Part shown: positions 23,120 to 36,117 of the stretch, piece by piece
Layout: every line of letters begins with the position of its first letter
Position numbering within the stretch: position 1 is the stretch's first letter
Origin: Candidatus Vogelbacteria bacterium
GTDB taxonomy: Bacteria; Patescibacteriota; Minisyncoccia; Phycocordibacterales; XYD1-FULL-46-19
Length of the DNA stretch: 54,490 nucleotides
Assembly: GCA_016188295.1 (NCBI GenBank)
Contig: JACPIA010000004.1
Location: 108,478 to 162,967 of the forward strand
Reading direction: 5' to 3'
Made by a program: the position numbers and the translations under genes
Notes under the pieces: model-generated
Told to the model about the DNA's origin: nothing
Database searches by the model: none
The model's input: only the letters and a program-made list of their open reading frames with translations

Positions 23120-23211
23120 TGGTAGTCCTGGGTGGAGTCGAACCACCATCTCCTTTCATGAGCAGGAGGCCATCATGATCAGAAAGGGCTCTGACATTGA
23201 GCTACAGGACT
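23120..23211 (-). tRNA. tRNA-like gene (92 nt) with a 24-nt segment in place of the 7-nt anticodon loop; identity undetermined
   Basis: On the minus strand: AGTCCTG TA GCTC AATGTCA GAGC C CTTTC [TGATCATGATGGCCTCCTGCTCAT] GAAAG GAGAT GGTGG TTCGACT CCACC CAGGACT A CCA. The acceptor, D, T and anticodon stems are perfect and CCA is encoded. No 7-nt U33/R37 loop is recoverable. Confidence 0.55.
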
Positions 23212-23222
23212 ACAACGATGTA

Positions 23223-23251
23223 TTACTAGCAGTCATGATTAGTATTGTCAA
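23223..23251 (-). promoter_or_regulatory. sigma-70-type promoter driving the tRNA-like gene
   Basis: On the minus strand, TTGACA (23251-23246), a 17-nt spacer, then TAGTAA (23228-23223), ending 11 nt before the tRNA-like 5' end. Confidence 0.55.
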
Positions 23252-23278
23252 GTGGTAGTTGAGTCTGTTAGAATAAGT

Positions 23279-23296
23279 CAGATTCCGGGATAGCTC
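23279..23296 (+). repeat. 18-nt direct repeat CAGATTCCGGGATAGCTC (left copy)
   Basis: Identical to 23585-23602, which is the 5' end of tRNA-Asn plus 5 upstream nt. Confidence 0.9.
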
Positions 23297-23326
23297 TCCG
23301 CCAGCTGGCGGAGGTAGAGCGATTGG
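23284..23326 (+). pseudogene. tRNA-Asn 5' pseudo-fragment: D-loop replaced by the 16-bp palindrome, anticodon arm deleted
   Basis: TCCGGGATAGCTC-[TCCGCCAGCTGGCGGA]-GGTAGAGCG-ATTGG, compared with the intact gene TCCGGGATAGCTC-AGC-GGTAGAGCG-[GTCGCCTGTTAAGCG]-ATTGG. Confidence 0.7.
23297..23312. repeat. third copy of the 16-bp palindrome TCCGCCAGCTGGCGGA
   Basis: Exact match to the two rpoD copies. Confidence 0.9.
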
Positions 23327-23347
23327 GTTAAGATAATTTATCTATTA

Positions 23348-23599
23348 ATGTTCATTGTCTACGCTATATACAATTCTAAACATAATAAGATTTATATAGG
23401 GCAGACAAGGGATATTAATTTGCGGCTTAAAATGCACAGCGATAAAATATTCCATAATAGTTATACTTCTAGATTTGATGGCTCGTGGGAAGTGGTCTAT
23501 ACTGAAAAACTTCCTGACCGTTTTTTAGCCCTTAAACGAGAAAAACAGCTAAAAAGTTACAGAGGTAGACAATTCATAAAAAACCAGATTCCGGGATAG
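23348..23599 (+). CDS. small GIY-YIG nuclease-family protein (83 aa)
   Basis: VYAIY..KIYIGQT..R..REKQLK is the GIY-YIG core. The last 10 nt, including the TAG stop, lie inside tRNA-Asn. Confidence 0.7.
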   Translation: MFIVYAIYNSKHNKIYIGQTRDINLRLKMHSDKIFHNSYTSRFDGSWEVVYTEKLPDRFLALKREKQLKSYRGRQFIKNQIPG

Positions 23600-23602
23600 C
23601 TC
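23585..23602 (+). repeat. 18-nt direct repeat CAGATTCCGGGATAGCTC (right copy)
   Basis: Identical to 23279-23296. Confidence 0.9.
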
Positions 23603-23664
23603 AGCGGTAGAGCGGTCGCCTGTTAAGCGATTGGTCGTAGGTTCGATCCCTACTCCCGGAGCCA
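23590..23664 (+). tRNA. tRNA-Asn (anticodon GTT)
   Basis: TCCGGGA TA GCTC AGCGGTA GAGC G GTCGC CTGTTAA GCGAT TGGTC GTAGG TTCGATC CCTAC TCCCGGA G CCA. Clean cloverleaf. Confidence 0.95.
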
Positions 23665-25233
23665 TGTGGGATTAGCCGAGTTAAAAGCTCGGCTTTTCTC
23701 TTTATTAGAGCCTTCATTCGGAGGTTTGAACGTGCCAGAATTTTTTGCGGACGGATTTGAGACGAGAATCATCGGCAGAAGTGCAGAATCCGTGTCAATG
23801 CTTATGTTTTTGTCCTTTAGGAGGAGGTTCGAACCTAAGGCGGATAAAATGACTTTTCTCGCGTGCTGGCCCCGTTCCGTGAATGCTTCTTTGGCATCGG
23901 TTGCGAACTTGATCACGTTATCGGCCGTCTGCAGCCAGCTGTCCACCCGCGCGTCAGTATCATTCAAAAGCTCATGCAGTTTTGCTTTCTCCTGATTGAT
24001 CGTTGATTTTTTTCGTGCAAATTCTTCTTCGCTTATTTCACCAGCGGCACGCATATCGATAAGAGCATCCAGCTTCCGCACGCACGCTTCGTAATTTTTC
24101 TGCTGATTGGAGAGGATTGCATTTCGATCAGCTGCCTCCCGGCCATTTTCATTCTGAAGCCACTTCATTGCCCAGCCGTGAAATTCTTCCGGCGGCCGGA
24201 CTTTAGCGAGCGTGCCGGTGATCTGCTTTTCCATCTCTTTTACTTCAATACATTTTTGAGCGCACGGACCCTTGCGTTTGGTGCAGTGGTAGTAGGTGTA
24301 GCGGTGAACATTGCCGTTTTTATTTTTCTTGGTCTTGTTTTCTGCCGTGACCATGCATCCACACTCGCCACACCGGATCATGCCGGTATAGGCAAATGAA
24401 TGGGCTTCCGGTTTTGGCTTACTGCCTCGGCCCAGGAGAACCTGGACGCGGTCATATTCATCGCGAGTGATCATCGGTTCGTGCTTGCCCTTATGCCAGT
24501 TGCCCGATCCGGCCGGCCATTCAAACCAGCCGTAGTAGAAGGAATTGTAGAGCACGCGGTAGAAGCCACTCCGTGCCAATTTCTTTAAGCCCCATTGATT
24601 GACAGCAATTTCGTGAACACGCGGCGCGGTATAAGTTCCGCTTAAAATCATATCGAACATTTTCCGAATGATTGGAAACATCTTCGGGTCTTTGCGAATC
24701 GTTTTAAAGCCTTTCATTTTATCCGGTGTATTCATGTAGCCGATTGGAGCAACGCCAGGGTGCCAGCCCATTTCCACCTTACGTCTTAGCCCACGCTTTA
24801 CGTCCACGCCCTTATTATCGTTTTCCAATTTCGCCTGACTACACAGGAGGTTCAATAAAAATTTATCATTCGGTGAATTCTTAAAAGCCTGTCCAGGTGT
24901 GCGGATTTCGAGGAGCTTGTTCTGATCCATGAGATAAACTAGATAGCCGGTGTCCACGGAATTACGTGATAACCGGTTCGGATGCCACGCAACAATACCC
25001 TCGGCTTCGCCTTTCTCAATCCGTTTTATCATCGCGTTGAAGATTTCCCGGCCGGGTGCTTTGGCTGAATAGGATTCTTCGAGGCGTTCCACCATTTGAA
25101 GCTTTTCCCGTTTTGCGAGTGCTTCCAATTCGCTCTTTTGCGAGTCAATCGAGAGGACCTGTCTGTCTTCTTGTTCTGAAGATTTTCGAGCGTAGAGGAA
25201 GTACTTGAGTTTTGGTTGTACTTCCTGGTTCAT
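23650..25233 (-). CDS. large serine recombinase (integrase)
   Basis: N-terminal resolvase domain (YARKSSEQED catalytic Ser, NRLSRN), recombinase domain, Cys-rich zinc ribbon (CGECGC..YYHC) and a coiled-coil tail. Confidence 0.85.
   Translation of the reverse strand: MNQEVQPKLKYFLYARKSSEQEDRQVLSIDSQKSELEALAKREKLQMVERLEESYSAKAPGREIFNAMIKRIEKGEAEGIVAWHPNRLSRNSVDTGYLVYLMDQNKLLEIRTPGQAFKNSPNDKFLLNLLCSQAKLENDNKGVDVKRGLRRKVEMGWHPGVAPIGYMNTPDKMKGFKTIRKDPKMFPIIRKMFDMILSGTYTAPRVHEIAVNQWGLKKLARSGFYRVLYNSFYYGWFEWPAGSGNWHKGKHEPMITRDEYDRVQVLLGRGSKPKPEAHSFAYTGMIRCGECGCMVTAENKTKKNKNGNVHRYTYYHCTKRKGPCAQKCIEVKEMEKQITGTLAKVRPPEEFHGWAMKWLQNENGREAADRNAILSNQQKNYEACVRKLDALIDMRAAGEISEEEFARKKSTINQEKAKLHELLNDTDARVDSWLQTADNVIKFATDAKEAFTERGQHARKVILSALGSNLLLKDKNISIDTDSALLPMILVSNPSAKNSGTFKPPNEGSNKEKSRAFNSANPTWLRE
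23675..23703 (+). terminator. rho-independent terminator after tRNA-Asn
   Basis: GCCGAG-TTAAAAG-CTCGGC followed by TTTTCTCTTT. It lies antisense within the last codons of the recombinase ORF. Confidence 0.65.
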
Positions 25234-27559: not shown

Positions 27560-28333
27560 TTAGATGCTATTCAATCGTTTCTCAGCAACTTTTATATATT
27601 TATCCTCAGTCTCAACGCCTATCCACTTTCTACCTAAACGTTTGGCTACAGCAGCGGTTGTACCGCTTCCCAGGAAGGGATCGAGGACAATGTCGCCTTT
27701 GTTGCTGCTAGCAAGAATAACCCTCTCGAGAAGGTTTTCTGGCTTCTGTGTCGGATGAGCTGATCGACCGGTTTTATCCTTCACTCGTTCTTTACCCTGT
27801 ACAATAGGCATAATCCAGAGATCGCGCATTTGTTTTTCGGACCCATCCTTAGCTTTATCGGGGTTCATCTTTTTGATAACAGAGTAATTAAATACCCATT
27901 TCTTACCCTTCGAGAAAAATAATATGTATTCGCAAGAATGAGTAAAGGTGCGTCGAGTCATGCTTGGCATAGCGTTATTCTTGTGCCAGGTAATAATATT
28001 CCTTGGAATGAATCCGAGAGTCTTAAGAGTCATGACTAGCTCACCGATATTGTGATACGTACAGGAGATATAAATACTGCCAGTCGGTTTTAAGACTCTT
28101 TTGCAGGCCTCTATCCATTCTTTGGTAAATTTTAGGTACTCAGCTTCGGTCATCTGGTCCCACTTTTCGTTAACCATGAACCAATCTCCGCCCGTTTTAT
28201 TTCCTTCCCATTTAAGACCATTTCCCGAAAGGTTGTATGGAGGATCGGCAAAAATCAAATCCACGCTTTCTTCCGGGATGTCTTTATTCAATATTGTCCG
28301 GCAATCGCCTTTGTGAATGGTGTTTAGCTTCAT
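27560..28333 (-). CDS. beta-class DNA N6-adenine (possibly N4-cytosine) methyltransferase, HinfI/CcrM-like (M2)
   Basis: Motif IV IFADPPYN precedes HPTQKP and motif I DPFLGSGTTAAVA (beta order). An ATGA overlap couples it to the upstream REase stop. Confidence 0.85.
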   Translation of the reverse strand: MKLNTIHKGDCRTILNKDIPEESVDLIFADPPYNLSGNGLKWEGNKTGGDWFMVNEKWDQMTEAEYLKFTKEWIEACKRVLKPTGSIYISCTYHNIGELVMTLKTLGFIPRNIITWHKNNAMPSMTRRTFTHSCEYILFFSKGKKWVFNYSVIKKMNPDKAKDGSEKQMRDLWIMPIVQGKERVKDKTGRSAHPTQKPENLLERVILASSNKGDIVLDPFLGSGTTAAVAKRLGRKWIGVETEDKYIKVAEKRLNSI

Positions 28334-30147
28334 ACTTGTGCTGATAAAATTTCTCTAGACCATTGTTCGACGACTCCAGGTATTTGTGAGGTCCAAATGT
28401 CAGAGCTAGGTGCGGTGCTGGTCAAGTTGATTATGGAATCGTAAAGATTCATAAGTTGCCGGTGATCAAGTCGTTGACCACGGTCTTTGATTGCGATAAT
28501 CGCTTCCAATAATTTTGTGAGTTCGTTAATTGTCAACGGCACAATCTTTTGTCGACGTCCTTCATATTCGTATTTAACAGCTGTCCAGAAAGTGTTTACT
28601 GTATCTCTGTGCAAAGTCGGAGCGACAAATAAACAGTAAGTATCTTTACTATTATTTGCGTCCTCGAAGTCCCTCAGATGTCTCATTACTGGCTGACCTT
28701 CCTGCATCCACTGAGCACGGTTAGTAAGCATAGTAACCTCACATACTCCGTTGAAGGCATCATAGAAACATTCGATATCTGGTTTGTTTGCCGGGGCAGT
28801 AAAGGTTGGCTGGTTATCGTCTCCTACCGGATAATTTGGCTTGATTGCAAGTGCGTCATTAATGGCATTCAAAGCTAAGATAGCTAAATGTTCAAGCTCA
28901 ATACTCTTTTTCTCTTTGGACTGTCGGATGTTGCGTAGCCGATCTATGTATTCTCTAACTTTATCGACATTTTGAGATACAAAATGATCTTCAGTTTCTT
29001 GAAGAGTTCTACGGTAATCCCTCAATTCACCGACATATACTTTTAGTTGTTCAACTGAAAGACGATCGGTGTTCTTAAATTCAAAATTAGGTATTTGTAT
29101 TCTTTGTTCTCTGAGCTGGTTTTGATACTGCCTAATATCATCAGCAGTATAGTTGCTGATTCGCACCAATTCTGTTTGAGTTTCCCAAGGCAGAATCGGC
29201 AGATTGATGTCAGAAATGTAATCAATGTATTCTTCCGCTGTAAAATCTTGGCTTGAACCATTGTCCGTCTCCAATATCTTTTGAATTTCAATACTTCTCC
29301 TTGGCTCAAGATCAATGTAATAGCCGTTGCCACGTAAGTGGAAGTATCTGGTCATTCGGAAATAACGACGAATATTGTCGCCGTAGTCCCTGGCATGTTC
29401 CATATTTTCAAAATCTTCAAAGTTTTCGCTTACATAACTATGGATGTACGCTTGCTTTTCTCTTTCATTTGCAAGTCTTTCGAGGCCCGTTCGGAATTCT
29501 AATACCTTACGAGCTTGGGCCTGAATATTTTGATAGCTAATAAGTGTAGGAATAAAAATATCAAATTCAACCTGAGAAAGCCCTTTTTCTGTAAGTCCGC
29601 GCTCGTGACAAATTTTATTTACTTCATTGATGAGATGGAGCGTCGCAATGAAAGGTTTAATGTCATACCCGTCTTCAACCTTAAAATCTCTTGAAAGAGG
29701 ATTCGGTAATTGCCATTTAAGAAAACTCTTGAAGAACATTTCACCAAGATCGGCATCTTCTTCCAGCAGGTACTCTCCAAAAGAAGTTATCCGAATCCGA
29801 CCCTGATCATCTATTTTCGCCAATCCCATCTTCTTAATCGGATTGAACGATTGTCGACCACGCATATCACCAGCTCCTACATAATTTCTAGCATTCAAAA
29901 TTTCTTCAGCCTGTTCGTAGGTAAGTGTCTCTGAATTTTCCAATAATTCTCTGTGTTCTCGAGAGAGATTGTTTGTAAACTGCTTGTTCCCAGCACCATA
30001 TAATTTATGTTGAATCAAAAGAATTTGGAATCGTCTTTGAGTATCATGATTCCAAACCTCGCCATCTAATGGCTTAAGGGCAACCAGAAAGTTCCTGATT
30101 CTCTCTGGGTTTCTAACCGTTGTTGATATGCTCCAAATTTTTTTCAT
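28330..30147 (-). CDS. AlwI / N.BstNBI / MlyI / PleI-family type IIS-like restriction or nicking endonuclease
   Basis: N-terminus WSISTTVRNPERIRNFL; mid RRYFRMTRYFHLRGNGYYIDLEP; C-terminus PDIECFY..CEVT..YCLFVAPTL. These parallel what I recall of N.BstNBI (TRYFRYTGLFVARGNQLVLNPE; PDMEIIY..GEVT..YCLFIAPEI). Confidence 0.7.
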   Translation of the reverse strand: MKKIWSISTTVRNPERIRNFLVALKPLDGEVWNHDTQRRFQILLIQHKLYGAGNKQFTNNLSREHRELLENSETLTYEQAEEILNARNYVGAGDMRGRQSFNPIKKMGLAKIDDQGRIRITSFGEYLLEEDADLGEMFFKSFLKWQLPNPLSRDFKVEDGYDIKPFIATLHLINEVNKICHERGLTEKGLSQVEFDIFIPTLISYQNIQAQARKVLEFRTGLERLANEREKQAYIHSYVSENFEDFENMEHARDYGDNIRRYFRMTRYFHLRGNGYYIDLEPRRSIEIQKILETDNGSSQDFTAEEYIDYISDINLPILPWETQTELVRISNYTADDIRQYQNQLREQRIQIPNFEFKNTDRLSVEQLKVYVGELRDYRRTLQETEDHFVSQNVDKVREYIDRLRNIRQSKEKKSIELEHLAILALNAINDALAIKPNYPVGDDNQPTFTAPANKPDIECFYDAFNGVCEVTMLTNRAQWMQEGQPVMRHLRDFEDANNSKDTYCLFVAPTLHRDTVNTFWTAVKYEYEGRRQKIVPLTINELTKLLEAIIAIKDRGQRLDHRQLMNLYDSIINLTSTAPSSDIWTSQIPGVVEQWSREILSAQV

Positions 30148-30154
30148 AGATTTA

Positions 30155-31849
30155 TTATTTACCTGTAACTTTGCAGTAAAATACTCGCTCGGTATGGCCC
30201 AGTGCTTCGCTTTTACCGGTAGTAAATGCTTTATATTCTCGCTCGAAGACTTCGACTTCTCCTCGCTCCTTCAAAATCTCAATAATCCTGTGATCTGGTA
30301 TTTTAGCATTGGATCGTTCGTTCATTTTCTCGCCGGTATTGTTGTATGAGACTAGAATATGTTTTGTTTTTGCGTTCTGTATCAAGTCTTCGAAAGCGTG
30401 AACCGCACCTTTTAAACAGTAGCGACTTTTTAAATGTGCGCGGTCTACCATTTTTTTGCCTATGCCCTCAACTTTTGGTTTCTCCCAGGTAGCAATATTC
30501 TCTAGTAGATGGTAGGAATCTCCATACTGCCTTGAATTGTATGGCGGATCAATATAAAGCACATCACACGCGATTTCTCTAATCAATTGGTTTGCGTCTT
30601 TTTGATGAACTTCGTTGTTAAGATTGTTTTTCACATCAATGCCCGGCATTAAAAGTCGCAGGCTCTGTATCGTATCAAGTTTCTTTCTATAGGTCTCATA
30701 ATGGCCAACAGTATTAGCCACTTTATCAATTGCGTAAATTAATGAGGTCAACAGAATATTTTTCTCTTCTTGGTCGATCTCCCCATCTTTACATAGTTTT
30801 TCTATTTCTTCTCTGACCGCTCCAATTTTCTGTGCATTTTCCTTAGTAAAATAAGAGCCGCCAAAAATCTCCGATACGTAATTCTCTTTCTTCGGCTGGA
30901 GGTTATTTAAATGTTCGATGATGTTTGATATTTTTTCTTCGTTGTAATTTTTAGTGTTCAGCCAGCATTGGAGAGATGTAAAGCTGCTATCAAGAATATC
31001 GTTCGAGATGATTTTGGTATCTGGCCTATTGAAGTAATGTCCAACAACTCCGGTACCCGCAAAGATATCGCAAAAGCTGTAATAGCCACGACATTTATCA
31101 GCTACTATGTCTCCTATAAAACCGAGGAGTTTAGTTTTGTTGCCCAAAAACCTTCGGTTATGTATTTGAAGTAATCGTTGTTCGCTTTTTTGAGGATAGA
31201 CGAACAGGGGGAGCTGGGCCGGTTTAGGTAGAGAATCGAACCTGTTTCGTAATACGCCCGTGACTTTGCCTCTGATCTCGACATTCTTAGTGAGTATAGG
31301 TTTATAACTTTCATTGGCTGGCTGAAGTCTGATACCGTTTTTTTCTTTGTAGATTCTTTTAAGAGTAGCTTCGTTTCCATTTATAATAGCCACGCCGATC
31401 TCGCCATTATCAACCACTGGTTGTTCGCGGACAATCACAGTATCACTATCAAAAATTCCGGCGTCCTGCATACTGTCTCCGCGAACTTTTAATGCATAGT
31501 GTCGGGCATGGCCTGATGTAAAATCCTTAGGCACGGAAATAGTTTCTGGTATTTCTATGGCCTCTATTGGTTCACCGGCCGCGATCATACCCAGCAGAGG
31601 GATTTCTATAAAATTATTTGAGCCTCCTTCCGTTCGGCCATTAACCTCAATAGCTCGAGCAAGATTGTCGAATTTTTTTATATAACCTTTATCAATGAGA
31701 GCATTAATATGCTGATGAACTGTTGATACAGCAGAAAGGCGTAGTTTTTTCTTTATTTCTTCCAGAGTCGGAGAGTAGCCCTGATCATCAATGAAAGTTT
31801 TTACGAAGTCTAAGACTTCTTTTTGTCGTTTAGTGACTGGAATACCCAT
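30155..31849 (-). CDS. fusion protein: complete LexA (wHTH plus S24 autopeptidase) joined to an alpha-class (Dam/D12-like) DNA N6-adenine methyltransferase (M1)
   Basis: Residues 1 to about 205 align to LexA: RQKEVLDFV..SPTLEEI, cleavage-site AAGEP, Ser in VRGDSM, Lys in TLKRIY. Residues from about 225 to 564 hold RFLGNKTKLL, motif I DIFAGTGVVG and motif IV YIDPPYNSRQY. Confidence 0.8.
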   Translation of the reverse strand: MGIPVTKRQKEVLDFVKTFIDDQGYSPTLEEIKKKLRLSAVSTVHQHINALIDKGYIKKFDNLARAIEVNGRTEGGSNNFIEIPLLGMIAAGEPIEAIEIPETISVPKDFTSGHARHYALKVRGDSMQDAGIFDSDTVIVREQPVVDNGEIGVAIINGNEATLKRIYKEKNGIRLQPANESYKPILTKNVEIRGKVTGVLRNRFDSLPKPAQLPLFVYPQKSEQRLLQIHNRRFLGNKTKLLGFIGDIVADKCRGYYSFCDIFAGTGVVGHYFNRPDTKIISNDILDSSFTSLQCWLNTKNYNEEKISNIIEHLNNLQPKKENYVSEIFGGSYFTKENAQKIGAVREEIEKLCKDGEIDQEEKNILLTSLIYAIDKVANTVGHYETYRKKLDTIQSLRLLMPGIDVKNNLNNEVHQKDANQLIREIACDVLYIDPPYNSRQYGDSYHLLENIATWEKPKVEGIGKKMVDRAHLKSRYCLKGAVHAFEDLIQNAKTKHILVSYNNTGEKMNERSNAKIPDHRIIEILKERGEVEVFEREYKAFTTGKSEALGHTERVFYCKVTGK

Positions 31850-31951
31850 AAGTTTGATTGATGCTTAAAGCTGAAAGTGCTATATTTCTAGTATACCGAA
31901 AATCTTACGAAAACGGAAGCGAGTCGGTTGTGGATTACTAAAGTAGCGAAT

Positions 31952-32749
31952 ATGGAATTAGAACCATTTAAATTGCCTGCCCTTGAAGCACTGGCAAAAA
32001 TAATCGGAGATAACTACACCGGGTCGGAAATATCCGAGCTTTTTCGTAAAGCAGGCTTTTCGGAGATATCACACGATGGTGGCACGAAGTGGCGATTTGT
32101 TTATGCTGCCCTGGAAGCGATGCAAAAACAGACTTACGGTACGTTTAATATCGCGAAGCTGATTCAACAACTTTGTGATCCGCAAGAGTATTTTTCGGCT
32201 CCAGAAAAACACGAGGTCATTTGTAAACAAGTGAACCAAATTTTAAGGTTTTACGGCTTGCTGGTTGGTGATGATGGGAAGCTACGGAAGTCTGGGGAGA
32301 AGGTCACATCTTTATCAAAATCCATACCGGAAAACGCCAAAATCTTTGATGACCGTAAATTCCACAATAAAATTTCCCAGCATGCTCGCAAGTTATTTAC
32401 CGAGGGCAATTATTTTCATGCAGTTTTTGAATGCTGCAAGGTCTATGACAAAGAGATCCAAGAAAAGTCTCAGATGTCTGAGTACGGATCGCGATTAATG
32501 GAAAGTGCTCTTTCGCTTACCGGTACGCTTAAGCTGAACGCGCAACAAACAAGAACTGAAAAGAATGAACAAGAGGGTGTTATGCATCTTTCGGTAGGTC
32601 TAATGCGGGCCATCCGCAACCCCCAAGCCCACGAGCCAGCACTTGATTGGCCTATTGACCGAGAAGCGGCTTTGGATCTGTTGTCGTTTTTGAATTTTCT
32701 TTTTAACAAAATAGATAAGACAATTTATTTTAATCAAAAATCAAATTAA
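31952..32749 (+). CDS. Ymh/TIGR02391-like protein (265 aa from the ATG at 31952)
   Basis: The C-terminal LSVGLMRAIRNPQAHEP..DREAALDLLSFLNFLFNKID matches my memory of the Hypoth_Ymh (RNxxAH) domain. The N-terminal half is unassigned. Confidence 0.55.
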   Translation: MELEPFKLPALEALAKIIGDNYTGSEISELFRKAGFSEISHDGGTKWRFVYAALEAMQKQTYGTFNIAKLIQQLCDPQEYFSAPEKHEVICKQVNQILRFYGLLVGDDGKLRKSGEKVTSLSKSIPENAKIFDDRKFHNKISQHARKLFTEGNYFHAVFECCKVYDKEIQEKSQMSEYGSRLMESALSLTGTLKLNAQQTRTEKNEQEGVMHLSVGLMRAIRNPQAHEPALDWPIDREAALDLLSFLNFLFNKIDKTIYFNQKSN

Positions 32750-32753
32750 CGTT

Positions 32754-35700
32754 ATGAGCAACTTTTCAGATACAAGAGGTTCAATATGGCGAAAGTGGGA
32801 CCTGCACGTCCACACACCAGGCACCAAAAAGAATGACCAGTATAAAGCCGATAATGGTGCGGATGTCTGGGATATCTTTTGTAAGAAGATCGAGGATTCT
32901 GATGTTCAGGCCGTGGGCATTACAGACTACTTTTCAGCTGATAGTTACTTCAACTTCTTAGGTAAATTTGGAGCAAAATATCCCGACTCCCAAAAGGCTT
33001 TCTTTCCGAATATTGAACTTTGTACCAACGATGTTGTAAATGCCGGGAACGAAGAAGTAAACTTGCATCTAGTCTTTAATCCATCGGCCCCGGAAATAGA
33101 TGCAAAAATTAGGACATTTCTCCAGAGTCTAAAGACAAATAAGACTGTGTCAGGAGGTCGCAATATAAAAGCCTCTGAGCTTTCGTCGCAGACTGATTAC
33201 GAAGAAGCAACAACTACCCGACAATTTATCGAAGAGGCCTTGAGTGAAACTTTTGGCGACAAAGTTGACTTAACGGAATATGTGATCGTGTTGACTGCTG
33301 TAAACGGAGATGGTCTACGGACCGAGACCGAAGATGTAGGCGGCAAGAGGCGAGGTAAAAAAAGAAAAGCTGTCATCACTGATGAGCTTGATAAATTCAG
33401 TAACGGTTTTTTTGGGAATTCTGGCAATACAGCTTATTTTCTTAATAAGGACAGGTTTGAAACTGATGAAGAAATTGAGCCGAAACCTGTTGTTACCGGA
33501 AGCGATGCCCATTCTTTCGCAGATCTCGATGAATGGCTTGGTAAGATTGTTCTTAAGGACGGCGTAGTTATTAAACAATCCGTATGGATTAAAGCTGACC
33601 TTACCTTTGAAGGATTGCGTCAGATAATTTTTGAACCCGAATGTCGAGTATTTATAGGAGAGGAACCGGATACAGAAATTCGAGCACGTTCAAATCCCAG
33701 AAAATTTATAGAGTCAATTCGCATTACGCACATTTCGGGATACGACGGTCGATGTGGTACTTGGTTCAAGGACGAGAATATCCCCTTAAATAAGGAGCTG
33801 GTTGCGATTATCGGGAATAAAGGCAGCGGAAAAAGTGCGCTTACCGATGTCATTGGGCTTCTAGGAAACAGTCATAACCAGAAATATGAGGTGTCGAATG
33901 GTAAAACCGAAGAGCTTTTTTCTTTTTTGAACAAAGAGAAATTTTTAAAGGGACACTGTGCGGCAAATTTTAATGGCGAGCTCCATTGGTATGCCGGTGA
34001 CCCCGATGTGAGATTATTGAATGCCGAAACAGATATTAGTGTTTTGGAGAATGTAGAGTACCTGCCTCAGAAGTATCTCGAAAAAATATGCTCCAATATC
34101 GAAGACGATGAATTCCGGCACAAACTAAATGAAGTTATTTTTGGCTACGTTGAAGATAAAGACCGTTACGGGAAAACTAGCCTTGAAGCCCTAATAGACT
34201 ACCTATCAAATCAAACTCGGGAGGATATAGCGTTAGCTCAACATACGCTCCATGAAGAGAATGAGAAAGTGGTTGCCGCAGAGAAAAAACTCTCCTTAGA
34301 TTACCGTAAAGAAGTTGCAGATAAGATTCGTTTACGCAATGAGGAATCCGCTGCGCATGACAAAACTAAGCCTACGGTCGTTCCGAAACCAGTTGAAGGC
34401 GGAGATGTAGCAACAAAAAACGCAGCTGATATAGCTAAGATTGAAACAGAGATCGCTGCTCTTGATTCGAGCATTCGAGAATTACAGAAAGAGCAAACCG
34501 CAGTTTCAAAGGACGCTGAGGAGCTTCGGCAGCTTAAACAGACAATTGAACGGCAGGTTAAAGCCATATCTGATCTAAAACCAAAATATGACGCGCTTTT
34601 AACTGCCTCCGGTATAAGGTTCGACGACCTTGTTACGTTTTCTGCAAAATACGAGAAACTTGATGAGGTGGTCCAAAACAAGGCTAGCAGGATTGGTGAA
34701 ATTGAAATTCAGCTCAGAACGGAAGAATCTGTTGCTAGTCTTGATCCTGTGTTGAGAGAAAATGCGGAAAAACAAAGTCTGGTATGTAAGCGTTCACAAC
34801 TTGAAAAACAGCGTAAAGAAATTATTGATCAGCTTGATAAGCCAAACCGCGAATACCAGGCATATCTTAAAGAAGAAGCAAAGTGGCAAAAGCGTAAGCA
34901 AGAGATTGATGGTGATAACGCTACACCTGATCCGGAAACACTCAACGGGCTGAAGCAAGAGTTAGAACGGATTACCAGCGTTTATCCCGAAGAGCTTCGG
35001 CTTGTGCGTAATAGTAGGGACCAAGCAAGTAAGGCTGTTCTTCAGAAAAAAGAAATACTGATTTCCTTCTATAACTCTGTTAAGCAATCAATAGATAAAG
35101 AGATCGAACGATATGCTGAAGATCTGGGCGACTATGAAATTTCGATTGAAGCAAGTTTGCGTTTCGATACGATTTTCCATGATGAGTTTTTTAAATATAT
35201 TAATCAAGGTGTAAAAGGCAGCTTCTATGGCTATGAAGAAGGCAAAACGCTTTTGAAACAACTTACGGAAAAAGTGAATGATTGGGAAAATGAGAACGAG
35301 GTCATTGCGACGCTGCAGAGCGTGGTATCACATTTGGATAGCGACGAACGTGAGGGTTTAGCTTCTGACGGTAAAGCTCGGGATGTTTTTCGACAAATGA
35401 AGCAAGGTAAAAATCCAGTGGATTTTTACGATTTTCTTTTCGGATTCGGATACCTTCAGACAAAATATGATCTTCGTGTTGATGGAAAAGACTTGAGTGA
35501 ACTTTCGCCAGGCGAGCGAGGAGGACTCCTTCTCATTTTCTACCTCATGCTTGATAGAAGGGATATACCTCTCGTAATAGACCAGCCCGAGGATAATCTG
35601 GACAACAAGAGTGTTTATGAGATTCTCGTCACCTTCCTAAAGAAAGCAAAAAAGCGTCGCCAAATAATTATGGCCACACATAATCCCAATCTTGCTGTCG

Positions 35701-35894
35701 TCGCTGATGCAGAGCAGATTATTCATGTTTCCATCGACAAAAAGAATAAAAATGATTTCGACTTCTCGCCTGGTGCAATCGAAAACCCCGACACCAACAA
35801 ACGAGTAATAGATATTCTTGAGGGAACGCTTCCAGCCTTCGATAACCGCAGATTGAAATACAGGAAACAGATCAAGAATGCGCCTACTGTGTAG
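32754..35894 (+). CDS. PHP phosphoesterase domain fused to an SMC/ABC-type coiled-coil ATPase (1046 aa)
   Basis: PHP ligands WDLHVHTPG, ITDY, NIEL, NLHLVF and TGSDAHS. Walker A is IIGNKGSGKSALTD. A coiled coil of about 300 aa follows, then LSPGERGGLLL, Walker B LVIDQPEDNLD and ATHNPNL. It starts 4 nt after the Ymh-like gene. Confidence 0.8.
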   Translation: MSNFSDTRGSIWRKWDLHVHTPGTKKNDQYKADNGADVWDIFCKKIEDSDVQAVGITDYFSADSYFNFLGKFGAKYPDSQKAFFPNIELCTNDVVNAGNEEVNLHLVFNPSAPEIDAKIRTFLQSLKTNKTVSGGRNIKASELSSQTDYEEATTTRQFIEEALSETFGDKVDLTEYVIVLTAVNGDGLRTETEDVGGKRRGKKRKAVITDELDKFSNGFFGNSGNTAYFLNKDRFETDEEIEPKPVVTGSDAHSFADLDEWLGKIVLKDGVVIKQSVWIKADLTFEGLRQIIFEPECRVFIGEEPDTEIRARSNPRKFIESIRITHISGYDGRCGTWFKDENIPLNKELVAIIGNKGSGKSALTDVIGLLGNSHNQKYEVSNGKTEELFSFLNKEKFLKGHCAANFNGELHWYAGDPDVRLLNAETDISVLENVEYLPQKYLEKICSNIEDDEFRHKLNEVIFGYVEDKDRYGKTSLEALIDYLSNQTREDIALAQHTLHEENEKVVAAEKKLSLDYRKEVADKIRLRNEESAAHDKTKPTVVPKPVEGGDVATKNAADIAKIETEIAALDSSIRELQKEQTAVSKDAEELRQLKQTIERQVKAISDLKPKYDALLTASGIRFDDLVTFSAKYEKLDEVVQNKASRIGEIEIQLRTEESVASLDPVLRENAEKQSLVCKRSQLEKQRKEIIDQLDKPNREYQAYLKEEAKWQKRKQEIDGDNATPDPETLNGLKQELERITSVYPEELRLVRNSRDQASKAVLQKKEILISFYNSVKQSIDKEIERYAEDLGDYEISIEASLRFDTIFHDEFFKYINQGVKGSFYGYEEGKTLLKQLTEKVNDWENENEVIATLQSVVSHLDSDEREGLASDGKARDVFRQMKQGKNPVDFYDFLFGFGYLQTKYDLRVDGKDLSELSPGERGGLLLIFYLMLDRRDIPLVIDQPEDNLDNKSVYEILVTFLKKAKKRRQIIMATHNPNLAVVADAEQIIHVSIDKKNKNDFDFSPGAIENPDTNKRVIDILEGTLPAFDNRRLKYRKQIKNAPTV

Positions 35895-35901
35895 TTCAGA
35901 T

Positions 35902-36117
35902 TTAATGTTTAACCCTTTCCATCCACCTCATCGCTTCCTCCGTAAATGGTTCTTCTCCCCGGAGCATTTTGACGGCAGCCTCCATTTCGTAGGAGTGCCA
36001 ACCGCTTAAAATAACGGTTCTAAGTTCTCGCACAGCTCGGAGCCATAGAATCAGATACGAACTCCATTTTTGAAGACGAGAGGGTTCGCTCGCCCAGCCC
36101 CGACAATGGCTGGGCAC
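35902..36117 (-). CDS. hypothetical ORF (71 aa), possibly a gene fragment at the element edge
   Basis: ORF only. Its start is buried in a GCCCAGCC..GGCTGGGC hairpin. Confidence 0.25.
   Translation of the reverse strand: MPSHCRGWASEPSRLQKWSSYLILWLRAVRELRTVILSGWHSYEMEAAVKMLRGEEPFTEEAMRWMERVKH

What the first reader, a model, noticed from the sequence alone, without database searches (positions are those of the whole stretch)
31952..35894. Two-gene module: Ymh(TIGR02391)-like protein plus a PHP-nuclease/SMC-like ATPase, a candidate defence system
The two genes are separated by 4 nt and are divergent from the R-M operon inside a mobile element.

- **Large protein:** it joins an intact-looking PHP metal site (HxH, D, E, H, DxH) to a Walker A/B, signature-motif ATPase split by a coiled coil of about 300 aa. 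This is an SbcC/Rad50-like layout.
- **Comparison:** by architecture it resembles the single-gene PHP+ATPase system I recall as Ppl (Gao et al. 2020) and the TrlF-type ATPase annotation.
- **Difference:** here it is paired with a Ymh-domain protein whose N-terminal half is unassigned.

A partnered form, particularly in a CPR-like host, may be a distinct system.
Basis: partly seen in the sequence, partly recalled or inferred. Interest (0 to 1): 0.7.

Follow-up and report, generated by a model that had tools for sequence, protein, structure and literature searches.

The report
Two separable defence genes sharing an operon
The two genes are real and both look like anti-phage genes (an RNA-cutting HEPN protein and a nuclease-ATPase related to Ppl), but each belongs to an already catalogued family that mostly occurs without the other, so this is probably a local stacking of defence modules and not a new two-gene system.

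Summary
geneA (31952-32749, 265 aa) and geneB (32754-35894, 1046 aa) are 4 nt apart and diverge from an AlwI-type restriction-modification (R-M) operon, next to a serine recombinase and tRNA-Asn.

- **geneA:** a Ymh/TIGR02391 HEPN protein with an invariant Rx4H motif. It matches the PADLOC model PD-Lambda-3_B over its full length. Its "unassigned" N-terminal half is a mobile domain that is fused to TIR in other proteins.
- **geneB:** a TrlF-family ATPase (NCBIfam 645 bits, cut-off 350), not Ppl (81 bits, cut-off 1000). The PHP fold and its metal ligands are supported.
- **Pairing, geneA side:** geneA followed by a TrlF gene at the same 4-nt junction recurs with five very different TrlF alleles. 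The same slot also holds AAA_13 ATPases and UvrD helicases.
- **Pairing, TrlF side:** none of 92 other TrlF-type (TrlF-family and related) loci has a geneA relative nearby.
- **Cassette swap:** a contig whose geneA protein is identical to the window's carries a TrlF only about 27% identical. The breakpoints are clean, at 32806/32807 and 35908/35909.

Best reading: these are co-transcribed but separable defence modules. A functionally coupled, split PrrC/RloC-like system is not excluded.

The parts
23650..25233 (-). Large serine recombinase abutting tRNA-Asn (23590-23664). It is the likely integrase of the island that carries the finding.
   Evidence: Pfam Resolvase, Recombinase and Zn_ribbon_recom; tRNA. 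Related islands L094/L095 have the same backbone with different cargo.
27560..31849 (-). Type IIS-like R-M operon: N6_N4 methyltransferase (27560-28333), AlwI-family endonuclease (28330-30147) and a LexA-S24-D12 methyltransferase fusion (30155-31849). It is divergent from geneA.
   Evidence: Pfam; PADLOC MTase_II and REase_II, with the best REase model being 'Type II nicking endonuclease' at 444 bits over its full length.
31858..31886 (+). Promoter-like site (TTGATG-17-TATATT with an upstream TG), 66 nt before the geneA ATG, inside a 102-nt intergenic region conserved in related islands.
   Evidence: consensus match only; site counts are not above the shuffled controls; conservation in L007, L010 and L014.
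31952..32290 (+). geneA N-terminal helical domain (aa 1-113). It is a mobile module with no Pfam model.
   Evidence: AlphaFold pLDDT is about 90. It is conserved in A2 (F31, K33, G35, H41, D42, T45, K46, W47 invariant). 240 representative proteins match at E <= 0.001. Seven of the 10 long ones scanned carry TIR in place of HEPN (one of them weakly) and two carry HEPN plus TPR.
32330..32716 (+). geneA HEPN domain (Ymh family, aa 127-255). The R222-N-P-Q-A-H227 (Rx4H) motif lies at 32615-32632.
   Evidence: PF09509 E 8e-33; TIGR02391; PADLOC PD-Lambda-3_B over its full length and Aga_HEPN; R222, N223, H227 and E228 invariant in 22 sequences.
32750..32753 (+). 4-nt spacer (CGTT) between the geneA stop and the geneB start. 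The same TAA-NNTT-ATG junction appears before other TrlF alleles and before a UvrD gene.
32778..33653 (+). geneB PHP phosphoesterase/nuclease domain (aa ~9-300). Candidate ligands are H18, H20, D58, E88, H105, D251 and H253.
   Evidence: Alignments A3 and A4; AlphaFold model and Foldseek PDB hits to PHP proteins.
33813..35864 (+). geneB ABC/SMC-type ATPase: Walker A (aa 354-361), a long helical insert (~aa 490-730 coiled-coil-like), then signature, Walker B and H-loop (aa 917-978). There is no CxxC hook.
   Evidence: Pfam SMC_N, AAA_21 and AAA_15; NCBIfam TrlF_fam_ATP 645 bits over its full length; motif positions.
32807..35908 (+). Exchangeable TrlF cassette: the body of geneB without its first 53 nt, plus 14 nt after the stop.
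   Evidence: blastn of window against L010: 98.8% identity up to 32806, nothing across 32807-35908, then 89.6% from 35909. L007, L011 and L012 have the same breakpoints, and L014 breaks at 32819.

Best explanation
The locus is a small defence island on a serine-recombinase integrative element, probably in a CPR (WWE3-like) bacterium. It stacks three separable modules.

1. **R-M system.** An AlwI/nickase-family type IIS R-M system.
2. **geneA.** A one-protein abortive-infection-type module. Its mobile N-terminal domain is inferred to be a sensor or adaptor. Its Ymh-family HEPN domain is inferred to cut RNA through the Rx4H site and to stop growth of the infected cell, as the related PD-lambda-3 system does.
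3. **geneB.** A TrlF-family enzyme with the architecture of Ppl. By analogy with Ppl, it is inferred to be a PHP exonuclease that degrades phage DNA from free ends and is gated by its ABC-type NTPase.

geneA and geneB are probably co-transcribed, but neither needs the other. The TrlF open reading frame is a cassette that recombination replaces wholesale downstream of an unchanged geneA.

**Shown:** family memberships, motif conservation, PHP fold, the neighbourhood statistics and the breakpoints.

**Inferred:** all activities, the trigger, co-transcription and the anti-phage role.
For: **Memberships**
- TrlF family: 645 bits against a cut-off of 350.
- PD-Lambda-3_B: full-length match, E 7.6e-35.
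- PF09509 and TIGR02391.

**TrlF stands alone**
- None of 8 geneB-type loci at 57-85% identity (L001, L002, L003, L005, L006, L094, L096, L098) has a Ymh neighbour.
- None of 4 plasmid loci does, out of 1147 plasmid records with TrlF-type hits.
- None of 80 IMG/VR loci of TrlF and related ATPases does. The neighbours of the strong TrlF hits there are mostly singletons.

**geneA stands alone**
- Homologues at about 30% identity are solo genes beside Hachiman, MazEF or RES-Xre on plasmids.
- Others are annotated 'protein Ymh' in Streptococcus prophages.
- Others sit inside type I or type III R-M operons, as Anantharaman et al. 2013 described (PMC3710099).
- The N-terminal domain occurs with TIR in place of HEPN.

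**No co-evolution**
- L010 encodes a geneA protein identical to the window's (100%; 98.8% at the DNA level across the shared region). Its downstream TrlF is of the L007 type, which is about 27% identical to geneB in its N-terminal 500 aa and 40% in its C-terminal 150 aa. The breakpoints are clean.
- In a neighbour-joining tree, geneA proteins next to TrlF are interleaved with those next to AAA_13, UvrD and SMC_N genes.
Against: - Within the geneA subfamily at 73% identity or more, every intact copy seen is followed by a large NTPase. The gap is 5 nt or less in most cases, with two exceptions at 21 and 199 nt. The partners are TrlF (5 alleles), AAA_13 (3), UvrD (2), ResIII (1 lineage) and SMC_N (1). 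This is more regular than random stacking would suggest.
- In one island lineage, three different TrlF alleles occupy the same slot. A TrlF therefore seems to be kept there.
- PD-lambda-3, the only tested system with this HEPN protein, was cloned as a block of three annotated proteins described as 'Nuclease, HEPN'.
- No experiment exists for the TrlF family as an anti-phage gene. The Photorhabdus work found a temperature phenotype mapped to trlG, not trlF (PMC7554251).
Confidence: 0.55

Rival explanations
1. The pair is a true two-component system, a split analogue of the anticodon nucleases PrrC and RloC. In this reading the Rad50/SMC-like ATPase (here TrlF, elsewhere AAA_13) senses DNA ends, restriction failure or nucleotide depletion. 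It then licenses the HEPN RNase encoded just upstream, and the PHP nuclease adds DNA degradation.
For: - The 4-nt junction and a shared promoter-like site.
- geneA followed by TrlF recurs with five alleles that are 22-30% identical, across three locus types: the AlwI island, a HinfI R-M locus (L008/L009), and a locus with a methyltransferase and a ResIII-REase gene (L020). All score above the TrlF cut-off at 645, 492, 576, 405 and 356 bits.
- The other commonest partner is AAA_13 (L017, L021/L022, L023). From my own memory, not tested here, this is the Pfam family of the PrrC/RloC ATPase domains.
- More distant geneA relatives sit between hsdS and hsdR, the classic PrrC position.
- Anantharaman et al. 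2013 already proposed Ymh-ATPase fusions as functional analogues of PrrC/RloC.
- The first 17 residues of TrlF survive the cassette swap.
Against: - An identical geneA protein works beside TrlF alleles only about 27% identical. UvrD and ResIII helicases fill the same slot.
- None of 92 other TrlF-type loci has a geneA relative (see the best explanation).
- No Ymh-TrlF fusion protein was seen. Among the long proteins that carry the geneA N-terminal domain, the extra domains were TIR or TPR.
- geneB has no CxxC hook.
Confidence: 0.3
2. geneA belongs functionally to the divergent R-M system as a PrrC-like guard of restriction, and TrlF is an unrelated cargo gene that landed in a recombination hotspot behind it.
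For: - The Ymh family is typically embedded in R-M operons.
- In L008, L014, L020 and L026, geneA always lies next to R-M genes.
- The R-M, intergenic and geneA block is conserved as a unit at 77-99% identity while the downstream gene changes.
Against: geneA is transcribed away from the R-M genes in the window. Plasmid and prophage homologues have no R-M neighbour. This reading overlaps with the best explanation and is not exclusive of it.
Confidence: 0.1
3. The genes are not for phage defence. TrlF would be a DNA-repair enzyme (a nuclease plus SMC-like ATPase, as in SbcCD), or the pair would be an addiction module that stabilises the integrative element.
For: - The architecture resembles SbcCD in general terms.
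- TrlF genes are very common on conjugative plasmids.
- The Photorhabdus locus gave a growth phenotype, not a phage phenotype.
Against: - The distribution is patchy and driven by horizontal transfer.
- The genes sit constantly among R-M, Abi, toxin-antitoxin and Hachiman genes.
- The alleles are replaced wholesale.
- The families are related to the tested defence genes Ppl and PD-lambda-3.
Confidence: 0.05

Closest known systems
TrlF (Photorhabdus laumondii temperature restriction locus trlR-trlF-trlG; NCBIfam NF045780)
   Same: geneB matches the family model over its full length, well above the cut-off (645 against 350 bits). It has the same N-terminal PHP domain ('histidinol phosphatase' in the old annotation) and the same ABC-type ATPase.
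   Different: There is no trlR or trlG next to it in the window. The partner here is a HEPN protein. One related locus (L020) does carry a TrlG-like gene (SLFN_AlbA_2 plus HATPase_c_4) four genes upstream of its TrlF. The function of TrlF was not established in that paper.
Ppl (Gao et al. 2020; single-gene anti-phage PHP exonuclease-NTPase)
   Same: The domain order is the same: PHP, then a Walker A lobe, a long helical insert and a C-terminal ABC lobe. The C-terminal lobe is detectably homologous. Like Ppl, TrlF-family genes are usually stand-alone.
   Different: The Ppl models are not met (80.7 bits against 1000), and only about 120 C-terminal residues align. No phenotype is known for TrlF.
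PD-lambda-3 (Vassallo et al. 2022; abortive-infection system, 'Nuclease, HEPN')
   Same: geneA matches component B from end to end, both the N-terminal domain and the Ymh HEPN domain.
   Different: No component A (the nuclease) is present. Neither geneB nor nine other island ORFs hit PD-Lambda-3_A. The adjacent nuclease here is a PHP-ATPase of about 1000 aa.
PrrC / RloC anticodon nucleases
   Same: An ABC/Rad50-like ATPase together with a HEPN-type RNase, encoded next to or inside R-M loci as a second line of defence.
   Different: In PrrC and RloC the two are one polypeptide. Here they are two genes, the ATPase carries an extra PHP nuclease and no zinc hook, and tRNA cleavage is untested.

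Membership tests
TrlF family AAA-like ATPase (NF045780) | Full-length match above the curated cut-off | tested here: met
   645.2 bits against a cut-off of 350; aa 8-1037 on model positions 1-944 of 944.
TrlF family AAA-like ATPase (NF045780) | N-terminal PHP domain with conserved metal ligands | tested here: met
   H18, H20, D58, E88, H105, D251 and H253 are conserved in A3 and A4. The model has a PHP fold by Foldseek. Pfam PHP itself gives no hit.
TrlF family AAA-like ATPase (NF045780) | Operon with trlR and trlG, as in the founding locus | tested here: not met
   No AlbA_2/HATPase_c_4 gene and no small regulator gene was found among the ORFs of 80 aa or more scanned beside the pair.
Ppl | Match to the Ppl family models at their thresholds | tested here: not met
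   NCBIfam Ppl_antiphage gives 80.7 bits against 1000. The best stretch of the PADLOC Ppl hit covers only aa 912-1032.
Ppl | PHP exonuclease plus NTPase in one polypeptide, acting as a single gene | tested here: inconclusive
   The architecture is met. Relatives are usually stand-alone. The activity is not testable here.
PD-lambda-3 | Component B (HEPN protein) | tested here: met
   PDLC03987: E 7.6e-35, aa 3-258 on model positions 4-264 of 270.
PD-lambda-3 | Component A (nuclease) encoded alongside | tested here: not met
   No PD-Lambda-3_A hit for geneB or for nine other island ORFs.
HEPN superfamily, Ymh family | Pfam PF09509 above the gathering score, and an Rx4-6H motif | tested here: met
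   113.3 bits against 25. R222-x4-H227 is invariant in 22 sequences.
HEPN superfamily, Ymh family | RNase activity | not testable with these tools
   It needs a biochemical assay.
PrrC/RloC anticodon nucleases | ATPase and HEPN nuclease fused in one protein; CxxC hook in RloC | tested here: not met
   They are separate genes. geneB has no CxxC.

The most novel reading that the evidence does not exclude
In CPR-type bacteria, the Ymh-HEPN protein and the large DNA-dependent NTPase encoded 1-5 nt downstream form a modular two-gene abortive-infection system. The downstream gene can be TrlF, AAA_13 or UvrD. This would be a split PrrC/RloC analogue with an exchangeable sensor: the NTPase detects phage DNA ends or failure of the neighbouring R-M system and switches on the HEPN RNase. 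In the TrlF version, the PHP exonuclease would in addition enlarge the nicks or cuts made by the adjacent nickase-like restriction enzyme.
Probability: 0.25. Interest if true: 0.6.

Novelty: new member of a known kind. Interest (0 to 1): 0.3.

Why it matters
The TrlF family is very widespread: more than 3200 protein clusters close to geneB, and hits in 1147 plasmid records. It is named in NCBI annotation, yet I found no paper that tests it against phage. This locus adds circumstantial evidence that TrlF is a defence gene, because it sits in an R-M island, it is replaced wholesale between near-identical genomes, and it is related to Ppl.

The locus also offers a natural experiment. The same HEPN gene sits beside three unrelated TrlF alleles, which could be used to test whether the two proteins talk to each other.

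If the pair does turn out to be coupled, it would extend the PrrC/RloC logic to a split form with an exchangeable sensor.

Tried and rejected
- **Genome-collection scan with geneB as a single sequence.** An alignment query would have been better.
- **My first home-made TrlF HMM.** It was contaminated by a seed (L060) that is really HsdR. Pfam and NCBIfam corrected this, and the L054, L060 and L062 'TrlF' calls were withdrawn.
- **Shared adaptor domain among the upstream neighbours of TrlF genes.** All-against-all BLASTP found none.
- **Sequence search of the PDB.** geneB gave only generic ABC-transporter lobes, and the geneA family profile (alignment A2) gave nothing.
- **Foldseek of the geneA model.** Nothing below E 0.8, so the HEPN call rests on Pfam, PADLOC and the motif.
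- **Search for att-like direct repeats bounding the island.** Nothing convincing was found. Long repeats are not expected for a serine recombinase, from my own knowledge.
- **Promoter and terminator scans.** Promoter-like sites are no more frequent than in the shuffled controls and terminator-like sites only slightly more, so the promoter is a suggestion only.
- **Literature searches.** I looked for TrlF as a defence gene and for Ymh in recent defence papers. Only the Photorhabdus paper and the 2013 HEPN survey turned up. The primary Ppl mechanism paper is not in the library, so I cite a review.
- **Cluster look-up for host naming.** It returned no names.


Full report
**What is there**

The window carries two + strand ORFs 4 nt apart: geneA (31952-32749, 265 aa) and geneB (32754-35894, 1046 aa). 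They diverge from a - strand R-M operon made of three genes:
- an N6_N4 methyltransferase;
- an AlwI-family endonuclease, whose best PADLOC model is a type II nicking enzyme;
- a LexA-S24-D12 methyltransferase fusion.

A large serine recombinase abuts tRNA-Asn 6.7 kb to the left. G+C falls to 0.39-0.42 across 28-36 kb, against about 0.45 in most of the rest of the window. Related contigs share this block and then diverge about 150 nt after geneB. The 'mobile island' description therefore holds. The closest homologue clusters are named WWE3 and Paceibacteria, which fits a CPR host, although I could not name the host directly.

**geneA**

- The C-terminal half is a Ymh-family HEPN domain: PF09509 at E 8e-33 and a TIGR02391 match.
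- R222-N-P-Q-A-H227 is invariant in 22 homologues at 51-81% identity.
- The whole protein, not only the HEPN part, matches the PADLOC model PD-Lambda-3_B (aa 3-258 on model positions 4-264 of 270, E 7.6e-35).
- PD-lambda-3 is an E. coli system listed as 'Nuclease, HEPN' by Vassallo et al. (supplement). It is used as an abortive-infection control in PMC13190303.
- The AlphaFold model (pLDDT 88.7) shows a helical N-terminal domain (aa 8-113) and a helical HEPN domain (aa 127-255). It has no PDB fold neighbour.

Searching 1.84 billion representative proteins with aa 1-120 alone gave 240 matches at E <= 0.001, in proteins of very different lengths. Of ten long ones scanned:
- seven carry a TIR domain where geneA has HEPN (one of them weakly);
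- two carry HEPN plus TPR repeats;
- one has no Pfam hit.

The 'unassigned' half is therefore a mobile module that is combined with alternative effectors. Anantharaman et al. 2013 described the same behaviour for the AbiJ-NTD domains that accompany Ymh and TIR. That is the architecture of a self-contained sensor-effector protein.

**geneB**

- NCBIfam places it in the TrlF family over its full length (645 bits, cut-off 350). The Spaf_1101 and Ppl models are far below threshold (113 against 475, and 81 against 1000).
- PADLOC finds only the last 120 residues of Ppl.
- The ABC-type motifs are all present.
- The PHP assignment rests on three things: conserved ligands in close (A3) and distant (A4) alignments; a confident model; and PHP-only top hits in the PDB, namely RNase AM, BAD_1165, PolC and Pol III alpha.
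- The name TrlF comes from the Photorhabdus temperature restriction locus, where the phenotype mapped to trlG and the role of trlF stayed open.
[quoted passage not shown] NTPs bound to its PHP and NTPase domains hold it in check, and 3'-OH ends trigger it.

**Is the pair conserved? The TrlF side**

| Sample | Loci with a geneA relative |
|---|---|
| geneB-type genes at 57-85% identity (L001, L002, L003, L005, L006, L094, L096, L098) | 0 of 8 |
| Plasmid loci inspected, from 1147 plasmid records with hits | 0 of 4 |
| IMG/VR loci of TrlF and related ATPases, within 4 kb | 0 of 80 |

The neighbours of the eight geneB-type genes include a type III-like R-M, an XhoI R-M, a Schlafen-type helicase, DUF4365 or nothing notable. 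The neighbours of the strong TrlF hits in IMG/VR are mostly unrelated to one another. TrlF genes therefore behave as stand-alone genes, often beside R-M systems.

**Is the pair conserved? The geneA side**

A metagenome scan with the family alignment gave 80 loci.

| Partner of geneA | Loci | Position |
|---|---|---|
| TrlF-family gene, four further alleles (492, 576, 405, 356 bits) | L007/L010/L011/L012, L014, L008/L009, L020 | Downstream, same 4-nt junction |
| AAA_13 ATPase | L017, L021/L022, L023 | Downstream |
| UvrD helicase | L018, L019 | Downstream |
| ResIII helicase | L024, L026 | Downstream |
| SMC_N ATPase | L013 | Downstream |
| hsdR, hsdS, hsdM | More distant relatives | geneA sits between type I R-M genes |
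| GmrSD | L029-L031 | Upstream |

The five TrlF alleles, counting the window's, are only 22-30% identical to one another. Homologues on plasmids and in prophages are solo genes next to Hachiman, MazEF or RES-Xre. In a neighbour-joining tree, the geneA proteins next to TrlF are mixed with those next to AAA_13, UvrD and SMC_N.

**The cassette swap**

L010 encodes a geneA protein identical to the window's. Its DNA is 98.8% identical up to window position 32806, which is codon 18 of geneB, just after the conserved WRKWDL. It then shows no similarity until 35909, where identity resumes at about 90% (alignment). In between it carries a TrlF of the L007 type, about 27% identical to geneB in its N-terminal 500 aa, with QTQT in place of the PHP HxH. 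L014 has a third allele in the same island. Conversely, the geneB-type cassette occurs without geneA in L005 and in L094/L095. The exchangeable unit is thus TrlF alone.

**Interpretation**

The simplest account is layered, separable defence modules that share a transcript: R-M, a Ppl-like DNA exonuclease and a HEPN abortive-infection protein. I give this 0.55.

The main rival, at 0.3, is a real two-component system: a split PrrC/RloC analogue in which an SMC-like ATPase licenses the HEPN RNase.
- For it: in the close geneA subfamily, a large NTPase always follows, usually at 5 nt or less. A TrlF is retained in one island through three allele replacements. The hsdS-geneA-hsdR arrangement of distant relatives is the classic PrrC position.
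- Against it: an identical geneA sits beside radically different TrlF proteins, helicases occupy the same slot, and 92 other TrlF-type loci lack geneA.

**Novelty**

Both genes are members of catalogued families: NCBIfam TrlF, and TIGR02391 / PADLOC PD-Lambda-3_B. The arrangement is a local one. I rate it a new member of a known kind, with interest 0.3.

What would raise the interest is a demonstration of coupling, or the first phage phenotype for a TrlF-family gene.

Noticed in passing
window 30155-31849 (-): A 564-aa fusion of a LexA DNA-binding domain, an S24 autopeptidase and a D12 N6-adenine methyltransferase is the first gene of the R-M operon. It is conserved in L007 and L014. An SOS-type cleavable repressor fused to an R-M methyltransferase could tie R-M or geneA-geneB expression to DNA damage. 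The 102-nt divergent intergenic region is conserved, including TAGTATACCGAAAATCTTACGAAAAYGGAAG.
   Followed up: partly
window 28330-30147 (-): The AlwI-family endonuclease matches the PADLOC 'Type II nicking endonuclease' model best and over its full length (444 bits). A nickase next to a PHP exonuclease raises the idea that TrlF processes restriction nicks.
   Followed up: no
L007 6827-9706 and L010 1896-4775: The alternative TrlF allele has QTQT where the PHP HxH motif should be, and about 80 extra residues before the ITDH motif. Its PHP site may be inactive, yet it scores 492 bits on the TrlF model.
   Followed up: partly
L020 183-1556: A TrlG-like gene (SLFN_AlbA_2 plus HATPase_c_4) lies in the same locus as a TrlF gene, with a methyltransferase, a ResIII-REase gene and geneA between them. 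This echoes the Photorhabdus trlF-trlG linkage. The TrlF in L003 follows a Schlafen group 3 helicase.
   Followed up: no
L094 and L095: These carry the same kind of serine-recombinase island (SpoVG-like small genes and a 527-aa recombinase) with an 85%-identical TrlF. The R-M is Eco57I-methyltransferase/XhoI and there is no geneA. The island backbone exchanges its defence cargo.
   Followed up: partly
window 23120-23664: A 25-nt direct repeat (23272-23296 and 23578-23602) covers the 5' end of tRNA-Asn. ARAGORN also calls an unusual 92-nt tRNA-Asp with anticodon ATC on the - strand at 23120-23211. These may be remnants of integration.
   Followed up: no
L147-L180 (IMG/VR): A separate group of ATPases of about 650 aa, with only weak similarity to the TrlF C-terminal lobe, has a conserved downstream partner of about 390 aa in 16 loci. 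It is a different two-gene family, which I did not identify.
   Followed up: no
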